Source: Octopus vulgaris (lineage: Eukaryota). From it: 64,000 nt of DNA. Every line of letters starts with the position of its first letter. The stretch's first letter is position 1. A program made the translations under genes and the position numbers. Positions 7,161 through 7,254 of the stretch are shown one piece after another. The notes beneath the pieces were generated by a model. That model searched no databases. It was not told the DNA's origin and worked only from the letters and a program-made list of their open reading frames with translations. The DNA is taken from positions 55,924,001 to 55,988,000 of the forward strand of contig OX597832.1 in the NCBI GenBank assembly GCA_951406725.2. The letters run 5' to 3'.

Positions 7161-7254
7161 CGTGGTACACGTGTTTCAAGCTTTATAAAACAACCTATTC
7201 TTACATCAATGTGTAATCGACATAACAGATGGTTTAAAGCTCTCTTCAGCCGCA
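7161..7254 (-). ncRNA. Type I hammerhead ribozyme motif, complete core
   Basis: Minus strand: UGCGG CUGAAGA GAGCUUUA [49 nt] UAAAGCUU GAA ACACGUGU A CCACG. Stem II is 8 bp, stem III is a perfect palindrome, and the cleavage triplet is GUA. Stem I has one C.A mismatch. Confidence 0.8.

What the first reader, a model, noticed from the sequence alone, without database searches (positions are those of the whole stretch)
7161..7254. Hammerhead with an intact core and a long structured stem II
CUGAAGA and GAAA are intact and stem II is 8 bp. Its 49-nt cap contains a further hairpin (UUACA/UGUAA). Stem III is the perfect palindrome ACACGUGU and the site is GUA. It lies in unique-looking DNA between (TA)n and (GATA)n tracts, where a protein-based annotation would miss it.
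Basis: partly seen in the sequence, partly recalled or inferred. Interest (0 to 1): 0.72.

Follow-up and report, generated by a model that had tools for sequence, protein, structure and literature searches.

The report
Hammerhead ribozyme in an animal retroelement
This is a real self-cutting RNA motif (a hammerhead ribozyme) near the tail end of a many-copy jumping element, most likely a Penelope-like retrotransposon, in an animal genome; the kind is known, its second stem is unusually long, and this particular copy carries a mismatch that probably weakens it.

Summary
The motif is real and lies on the minus strand: CUGAAGA 7249-7243, an 8-bp stem II with a 49-nt cap, GAAA, palindrome ACACGUGU, and a predicted cut after A7166. 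It appeared in 0 of 60 window shuffles. It is not unique DNA. In four public runs, 165-1621 distinct contigs map onto 7050-7443, so this is a 5'-truncated copy of a dispersed repeat of at least about 790 nt that ends in (TA)n. About 95% of family depth carries a letter at 7163 that completes a perfect 5-bp stem I, which this copy has lost. No listed variant disrupts the 40 core and stem positions. The helix sizes, palindromic stem III, position 116 nt from the 3' end, (TA)n ends and an inverted junction fit the terminal-repeat hammerheads of Penelope-like elements, which cleave weakly as dimers. The element's reading frame was not reached, and cleavage and expression are untested. What is new is the 65-nt stem II domain, which Rfam missed. 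Novelty: a new variant of a known kind, of modest interest.

The parts
7050..7443 (-). 5'-truncated copy of a dispersed repeat family (its 3' region; non-coding), likely the terminal repeat of a Penelope-like element
   Evidence: 202, 1621, 443 and 165 contigs laid in runs X1, X3, X7, X12; cover stops near 7443, where family contigs go on in other sequence. Stops in all three minus-strand frames; no Pfam hit for the one 46-aa open stretch.
7161..7254 (-). Type I hammerhead ribozyme motif
7250..7254 (-). Stem I, 5' strand (UGCGG)
7243..7249 (-). Catalytic core C3-A9 (CUGAAGA)
   Evidence: no listed variant
7235..7242 (-). Stem II, 5' strand (8 bp)
   Evidence: Pair probabilities 0.67-1.0 when the domain is folded alone
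7186..7234 (-). 49-nt cap of stem II; long interrupted helix in this copy, variable in the family
   Evidence: 4 polymorphic sites and 1 private site
7178..7185 (-). Stem II, 3' strand; at 7178 some family members (3-25% of depth) have the canonical G10.1-C11.1 pair
7167..7177 (-). Core GAAA (7177-7174) and palindromic stem III ACACGUGU (7174-7167): 2 bp as a monomer, 8 bp between two molecules
   Evidence: Self-duplex -10.3 kcal/mol, monomer hairpin +1.4
7165..7166 (-). Predicted cleavage site, after A7166 of GUA
   Evidence: Hammerhead numbering (established knowledge); not assayed
7161..7165 (-). Stem I, 3' strand; position 7163 mismatched in this copy, paired in the family
   Evidence: Other letter in 94-99% of depth in 4 of 4 runs, forming C-G with 7252
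6999..7048 (.). (TA)n tract next to the element's 3' end; likely insertion target
   Evidence: loose ends rich in (TA)n at 7051 (X12), 7119 and 7134 (X3)
7444..7569 (.). Single-copy flank, not part of the family
   Evidence: Covered by one X1 contig (7401-7569, 0 differences, depth 2.6), which bridges the junction

Best explanation
The motif is the type I hammerhead in the 3' terminal repeat (pLTR) of a dispersed, (TA)n-associated retroelement family, most likely a Penelope-like element (PLE); the window holds one 5'-truncated copy. Mechanism: in a transcript that reads through two tandem terminal repeats, or between two transcripts, the two ACACGUGU palindromes pair into an 8-bp shared stem III. 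This forms a double hammerhead that cuts after GUA, about 116 nt from the element's 3' end, and processes the element RNA. A lone copy cannot form a stable stem III and should cut poorly. This copy has also lost the middle pair of stem I, so it is probably a weakened relic with no host role. The long cap of stem II is most likely a tolerated, loosely structured extension. Shown: the motif, its multi-copy status, the element's limits in this copy, the family letters that keep the fold, and the computed dimer advantage. Inferred: PLE identity, cleavage, dimer use and impairment of this copy.
For: Multi-copy: 202, 1621, 443 and 165 contigs laid, most under 99% identical, in 4 runs of 4 studies under organism labels A, B, C, A. 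Truncation pattern: depth is high over 7050-7265 and lower toward 7443; one X1 contig (548 nt, depth 27) runs 397 nt past 7443, and 3 X1 contigs agree 0.98 on that continuation, so the family is at least about 790 nt. Fold kept: the family letter at 7163 completes stem I and the 7178 variant keeps its pair; 0 disruptive variants at 40 constrained positions against 15 polymorphic sites in 149 free positions, Fisher p = 0.024. Dimer: the double hammerhead evaluates at -45.1 kcal/mol, against -30.0 for two monomer hammerheads and -47.1 for the best dimer fold. PLE likeness: published metazoan PLE hammerheads have helix II of 7-8 bp, helix I of 4-5 bp and a small palindromic helix III, and cleave weakly, as dimers (PMC4209133). 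PLE copies are 5'-truncated, often with an inverted copy at the 5' end, and some clades prefer (TA)n (PMC8557442). One X3 contig joins 7421 to 7104 on the opposite strand with 55 letters on that side, which I read as an inverted 3' end beside a truncation point. A second hammerhead-bearing family in the window shows the same layout: cut site 133 nt from a (TA)n end, with inverted pieces at 34369-34580.
Against: No RT or GIY-YIG frame was reached, so PLE membership is not shown. [quoted passage not shown] The conservation test is weak: p = 0.11 if 7178 is counted as a change, and hid 20 variant rows, 170 loose-end rows and 2416 pieces. The variants are unphased and show no two-sided compensatory change. 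The inverted junction rests on one contig at 80% likeness, where the tool warns of artefacts. The fall in depth upstream may partly reflect divergence between subfamilies (different sequence just 5' of stem I in X3 and X7). No Rfam hammerhead model matched, even at E up to 10. In the monomer ensemble stems I and III have probabilities under 0.01.
Confidence: 0.68

Rival explanations
1. A solo fragment of a non-LTR retrozyme: a tandem, non-coding hammerhead repeat whose transcripts are cut into monomers and circularised, then mobilised by PLE proteins.
For: Retrozymes carry type I hammerheads with a two-base-pair helix III and tetraloop, are low in GC and occur in molluscs (PMC7229834). Vertebrate retrozyme consensus lengths reach 972 bp and solo monomers are common (bioRxiv 10.64898/2026.07.22.740005). 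The 394 nt in the window are non-coding.
Against: No listed joint runs from the 7050 end back to the upstream end, and the listed flanks at the 3' end are heterogeneous (agreement 0.54 in X7) or (TA)n. The family is at least about 790 nt, above the 170-400 nt typical of invertebrate retrozymes. No tandem copy in the window. Short contigs could hide tandem junctions.
Confidence: 0.17
2. The 3' end of a different retroelement (a LINE such as Dong-R4, RTE or CR1, or a SINE) that captured a hammerhead.
For: 5' truncation and ends in simple repeats are common to LINEs (own knowledge). These LINE clades and about 900 SINE families are recently active in Octopus vulgaris (PMC13282606). No reading frame was seen to settle the class.
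Against: A dimer-type type I hammerhead near the 3' end is the published hallmark of PLE terminal repeats. An inverted 3'-terminal piece also fits PLEs.
Confidence: 0.09
3. This particular copy has been kept by the host as a working, regulatory self-cleaving element at this locus.
For: The core is intact, and only 5 of 194 positions (7090-7283) are private to this copy among the listed rows.
Against: One of those five private changes breaks stem I. Monomer folding into the hammerhead is unfavourable. No gene context was identified. The unique flank was covered in only 1 of 4 runs.
Confidence: 0.04
4. A chance arrangement of motifs in AT-rich DNA.
For: No Rfam match; the whole motif does not fold better than shuffles.
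Against: 0 of 60 and 0 of 100 shuffles; 0 of 19 chance core matches have a stem II over 2 bp; the family letter completes stem I.
Confidence: 0.02

Closest known systems
Hammerheads in the terminal repeats (pLTRs) of metazoan Penelope-like elements (Cervera and de la Pena 2014, PMC4209133), especially the variants with a small palindromic helix III in Drosophila, rotifers, shrimps and mosquitos
   Same: Type I topology, helix II of 8 bp, helix I of 5 bp, short palindromic helix III suited to dimers, no recognisable canonical loop I/II contact, position near the 3' end, many dispersed truncated copies.
   Different: The stem II domain spans 65 nt (49-nt cap); the published examples I saw have loops of 3-7 nt (passages). 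There is no unpaired nucleotide between 9 and 10.1. Pair 10.1-11.1 is mostly G-U. The link to a PLE reading frame is not shown.
Metazoan non-LTR retrozymes (Cervera and de la Pena 2020, PMC7229834; Li et al. 2026 bioRxiv 10.64898/2026.07.22.740005)
   Same: Type I hammerhead with a 2-bp helix III and tetraloop, low GC, non-coding surroundings, found in molluscs.
   Different: No tandem arrangement seen, unit longer than about 790 nt, heterogeneous or (TA)n ends; circular RNA not tested.
Octopus Naiad elements (Craig et al. 2021, PMC8557442)
   Same: (TA)n preference and PLE-type structure; Naiad_Ovul and Naiad_Omin contain the 11-mer CTGAAGAGAGC.
   Different: The rest of the motif and 7 other short motifs from the two window families (or a family variant) are absent from the octopus records; one 9-mer matched only an unrelated GC-rich record. 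Cephalopod Naiads are described as old remnants lacking canonical hammerheads, whereas many contigs of this family are 95-99% or more alike to the window copy.
Rfam hammerhead families
   Same: Same catalytic core.
   Different: No match at the gathering score or at E up to 10, probably because of the long stem II (inference).

Membership tests
Hammerhead ribozyme, type I | Core CUGANGA ... GAAA ... UH in the right order | tested here: met
   no listed family variant in the 12 fixed core positions
Hammerhead ribozyme, type I | Three stems, with stem I open-ended | tested here: met
   II 8 bp, III 2 bp (8 bp in a dimer), I 5 bp in the family and 4 of 5 in this copy
Hammerhead ribozyme, type I | Canonical loop I/loop II tertiary contact of fast hammerheads | tested here: inconclusive
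   No short loop II or bulged loop I is recognisable by eye; a contact with the cap was not modelled. PLE hammerheads and mussel retrozymes also lack it.
Hammerhead ribozyme, type I | Site-specific self-cleavage | not testable with these tools
   Needs an in vitro assay; contigs cannot show RNA ends
Penelope-like element (EN+) | Single ORF with a telomerase-like RT and a GIY-YIG endonuclease | not testable with these tools
   The copy is truncated before any frame; no genome is held; the upstream contig sequence is not returned
Penelope-like element (EN+) | Hammerhead in the 3' terminal repeat, in the sense of the element | tested here: met
   Cut site 116 nt from the (TA)n end; the family extends upstream of the motif on the same strand
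Penelope-like element (EN+) | Dispersed 5'-truncated copies, often with an inverted copy at the 5' end | tested here: inconclusive
   Truncation at 7443 and a depth gradient; three opposite-strand joints of one contig each, one of them fitting an inverted 3' end
Penelope-like element (EN+) | Partial-tandem pLTR flanking a full-length copy | not testable with these tools
   No full-length copy available
PLE minimal hammerhead (min-HHR) consensus | Helix II 7-8 bp, helix I 4-5 bp, palindromic helix III | tested here: met
PLE minimal hammerhead (min-HHR) consensus | [quoted passage not shown] | tested here: not met
   G7242 pairs directly after A9 and the cap is 49 nt; I therefore do not file it as a min-HHR
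Non-LTR retrozyme | Head-to-tail tandem repeats, each unit with a type I hammerhead | tested here: not met
   No tandem in the window; no back-joint among the listed joints; short contigs limit the test
Non-LTR retrozyme | Abundant linear and circular RNA of unit length | not testable with these tools
   Only contigs were available
Naiad clade of PLEs | N-terminal endonuclease before the RT; similarity to known octopus Naiads | tested here: inconclusive
   No frame reached; the window motifs are not in the published octopus Naiad consensus sequences

The most novel reading that the evidence does not exclude
Octopus-like genomes carry several young PLE families whose hammerheads have 30-65-nt stem II domains (this one, and a second at 52893-52964). 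These are invisible to Rfam and to the 7-17-nt spacer descriptor that Craig et al. used to flag core motifs in Naiads. If such a family proves to be Naiad-type, the claim that this clade lacks hammerheads would be a search artefact, and the long arm could be a selected module, for example a protein-binding or dimer-stabilising arm, rather than a tolerated insertion.
Probability: 0.15. Interest if true: 0.6.

Novelty: new variant of a known kind. Interest (0 to 1): 0.33.

Why it matters
It adds a many-copy hammerhead family in a genome type where I found none described (searches; the 2026 O. vulgaris repeat annotation has 0 mentions of 'ribozyme' in its main text). It also shows that standard scans miss hammerheads with long stem II insertions, so counts of ribozyme-bearing Penelope elements may be too low. 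The biology (dimer-type hammerheads in PLE terminal repeats) is already known, and this copy looks like a weakened relic, so the importance is modest.

Tried and rejected
No genome is held for this window, so copy number and element ends could not be read from an assembly. Plus-strand fold: nothing relevant (z = 0.79). Rfam: only a tRNA-like hit elsewhere at the gathering score; 36 weak hits at E up to 10 in 6700-7700, none a ribozyme; the snoRNA-like hits near 7376-7557 are far below their thresholds and were dropped. No second copy of 7050-7580 in the window. The two window hammerhead families are not detectably homologous: alignment scores 94 and 112, against a shuffle mean of 95 and maximum of 123. 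Family-specific pattern: 0 matches in metagenome contigs and 0 in viral contigs. A looser pattern gave 19 metagenome loci, all chance-like. No RNA holder listed; X12 is only guessed to be RNA, so I draw nothing on expression. Summed depth over the hammerhead in X1 is 198-857 times the single flank contig, but the tool states this is no copy number, so I use it only as 'many'. The lack of cover of 7444-7569 in X3, X7 and X12 is not read as absence. A coding role for 7297-7434 was rejected (stops directly upstream, family indels at 7294-7308, no Pfam hit). Naiad identity is not supported by the published consensus sequences; line breaks in that file could hide a short motif. A paper search for a motif of the window's common repeat, meant to confirm the host, gave 0 papers. 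Lunse et al. 2017 is not held; I know it only through a review passage. One of the supplementary files of PMC4209133 could not be searched, and the supplements of the bioRxiv preprint are closed; either could list similar motifs. A constrained dimer fold crashed and was replaced by direct energy evaluation. Earlier-findings look-ups by sequence and by place returned nothing.

Full report
Observation. It reads UGCGG (stem I, 7254-7250), CUGAAGA (7249-7243), an 8-bp stem II (7242-7235 with 7178-7185) closed by 49 nt, GAAA (7177-7174), the palindrome ACACGUGU (7174-7167), A17 at 7166, and the second strand of stem I (7165-7161). It is more than chance gives. A descriptor requiring an 8-bp stem II found 1 site in the window and 0 in 60 shuffled windows, the core pattern found 0 in 100 shuffles, and none of 19 metagenome matches to that pattern had more than 2 bp of stem II. 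Rfam did not detect it at any threshold tried.

The UUACA/UGUAA hairpin has pair probability of about 0.001 in this copy; the cap folds instead as a long interrupted helix. Family variants blur this. The family's cap fold is therefore unresolved. Stem I has a C.A mismatch in this copy, and in the monomer ensemble stems I and III form with probability under 0.01.

It is a repeat, not unique DNA. No genome is held, so I used public runs. Of 24 listed rows, 20 hold part of 7050-7580; I laid 4 of them, from 4 studies. They gave 202, 1621, 443 and 165 distinct contigs, most 90-99% alike to the window, covering 7050 to about 7443. Depth is highest over 7050-7265 and lower upstream. At 7443 the window copy leaves the family: three X1 contigs agree on a different continuation, and one of 548 nt runs 397 nt further, so the family is at least about 790 nt long. 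Positions 7444-7569 are covered by a single X1 contig with no differences, which bridges the junction. At the other end the element meets (TA)n, and other copies show (TA)n-rich loose ends at 7051, 7119 and 7134. I read this as a dispersed family with its 3' end at 7050 and variable 5' truncation. The part in the window is non-coding.

The family keeps the ribozyme. At 7163, 94-99% of depth in all four runs has the letter that pairs with C7252, giving a perfect 5-bp stem I; the window's letter is a private change at a CpG. At 7178 a minority (3-25%) has the canonical G10.1-C11.1 pair. Among the listed rows, 0 of 40 core and stem positions carry a disruptive variant, against 15 of 149 cap and flank positions (p = 0.024; 0.11 if 7178 is counted). 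One variant falls in the palindromic loop (7171, 6-27%). This is modest evidence: 20 variant rows were not shown, variants are unphased, and no two-sided compensatory change was seen.

Mechanism. The palindrome gives a 2-bp stem III in one molecule (+1.4 kcal/mol) and an 8-bp duplex between two (-10.3). For this copy the double hammerhead evaluates at -45.1 kcal/mol, against -30.0 for two monomer hammerheads and -47.1 for the best dimer fold. That is the known design of hammerheads that cut only when two copies are present. The likely role is processing of the element's tandem transcript about 116 nt from its 3' end. Cleavage was not tested. A lone, truncated copy with a broken stem I is probably nearly inactive.

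What kind of element. Metazoan PLE hammerheads are described with helix II of 7-8 bp, helix I of 4-5 bp, a small palindromic helix III in several groups, mostly single dispersed copies from truncated elements, and low activity that needs dimers (PMC4209133; first two of four parts of the text read; supplement passages). PLE insertions are 5'-truncated, often have an inverted copy at the 5' end, and some clades prefer (TA)n (PMC8557442; passages and section 6). One X3 contig joins 7421 to 7104 on the opposite strand, which fits an inverted 3' end beside a truncation point. A second, unrelated family in the same window repeats the pattern: a type I hammerhead with CUGAAGA and a 29-nt stem II domain at 52893-52964, 133 nt from a (TA)n end, and hammerhead-less 3' pieces in inverted arrangement at 34369-34580. 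The host looks like an octopus from its interspersed repeats; this is recalled, not confirmed by a call (one search was blank). O. vulgaris has 30 recently active Penelope families (PMC13282606; passages). The defining RT/GIY-YIG frame was out of reach, so I say it works like a PLE terminal-repeat hammerhead and is probably one (0.68), not that membership is shown. The main rival is a long-unit retrozyme (PMC7229834, part 2, section 14 and passages; bioRxiv 10.64898/2026.07.22.740005, three of five parts), which that preprint argues derives from PLE terminal repeats anyway. No tandem junction was listed. The published octopus Naiad consensus sequences share only an 11-mer with the motif.

Novelty. 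The class is known. What differs is the 65-nt stem II domain and the missing unpaired nucleotide after A9. Searches for cephalopod or octopus hammerheads and for long stem II variants returned no description of this family. The nearest items were 235 unexamined Rfam hammerhead hits in giant squid (PMC6962438; passage), 6-8 bp helix II variants in fungal viruses (PMC13725137; passages), and eight Naiad 'half cores' with 35-50 nt spacers. The library lacks most subscription papers, including Lunse et al. 2017. Verdict: a new variant of a known kind, interest 0.33. The bolder reading, that long-arm hammerheads hide in PLE clades thought to lack them, has probability of about 0.15.

Noticed in passing
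window 52893-52964 (minus), element about 52770-52975: A second type I hammerhead of another repeat family: 6-bp stem I, CUGAAGA, 29-nt stem II domain (3 bp plus an inner 6-bp hairpin), near-palindromic stem III, AUA site, 133 nt from a (TA)n end. Its stem I is better paired than that of the finding.
   Followed up: partly
window 34369-34580: Two 3'-terminal pieces (118 and 96 nt, 95% identical to 52761-52878) of that second family in inverted arrangement between AT-rich ends, a PLE-like layout.
   Followed up: partly
window 6830-6945 (plus): Short non-repetitive island between microsatellites with a 5-bp hairpin followed by GAAAC-N4-GUC but no intact CUGANGA; possibly a decayed minimal hammerhead of another PLE. 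No other copy in the window.
   Followed up: partly
window 10903-10997 (minus): tRNA-like match (Rfam RF00005, 39 bits) that ARAGORN does not call; probably a pseudogene or SINE head.
   Followed up: partly
window 48897-49738 (plus): Broken frames with a YSPDIAP-like motif, recalled as typical of mariner transposases; no significant Pfam hit.
   Followed up: partly
window 19695-20190 (minus): Tandem duplication of 231 bp whose frame resembles the C-terminal end of a CR1/L2-type LINE protein (recalled; no significant Pfam hit).
   Followed up: partly
window 8506-8851 and 15442-16075: Tandem units of 184-185 bp of a common interspersed repeat that I recall from octopus genomes.
   Followed up: no
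window 7255-7293: Family subgroups differ just upstream of stem I (distinct loose ends at 7254 and 7293, indels at 7294-7308), so there are at least two subfamilies sharing the hammerhead.
   Followed up: no
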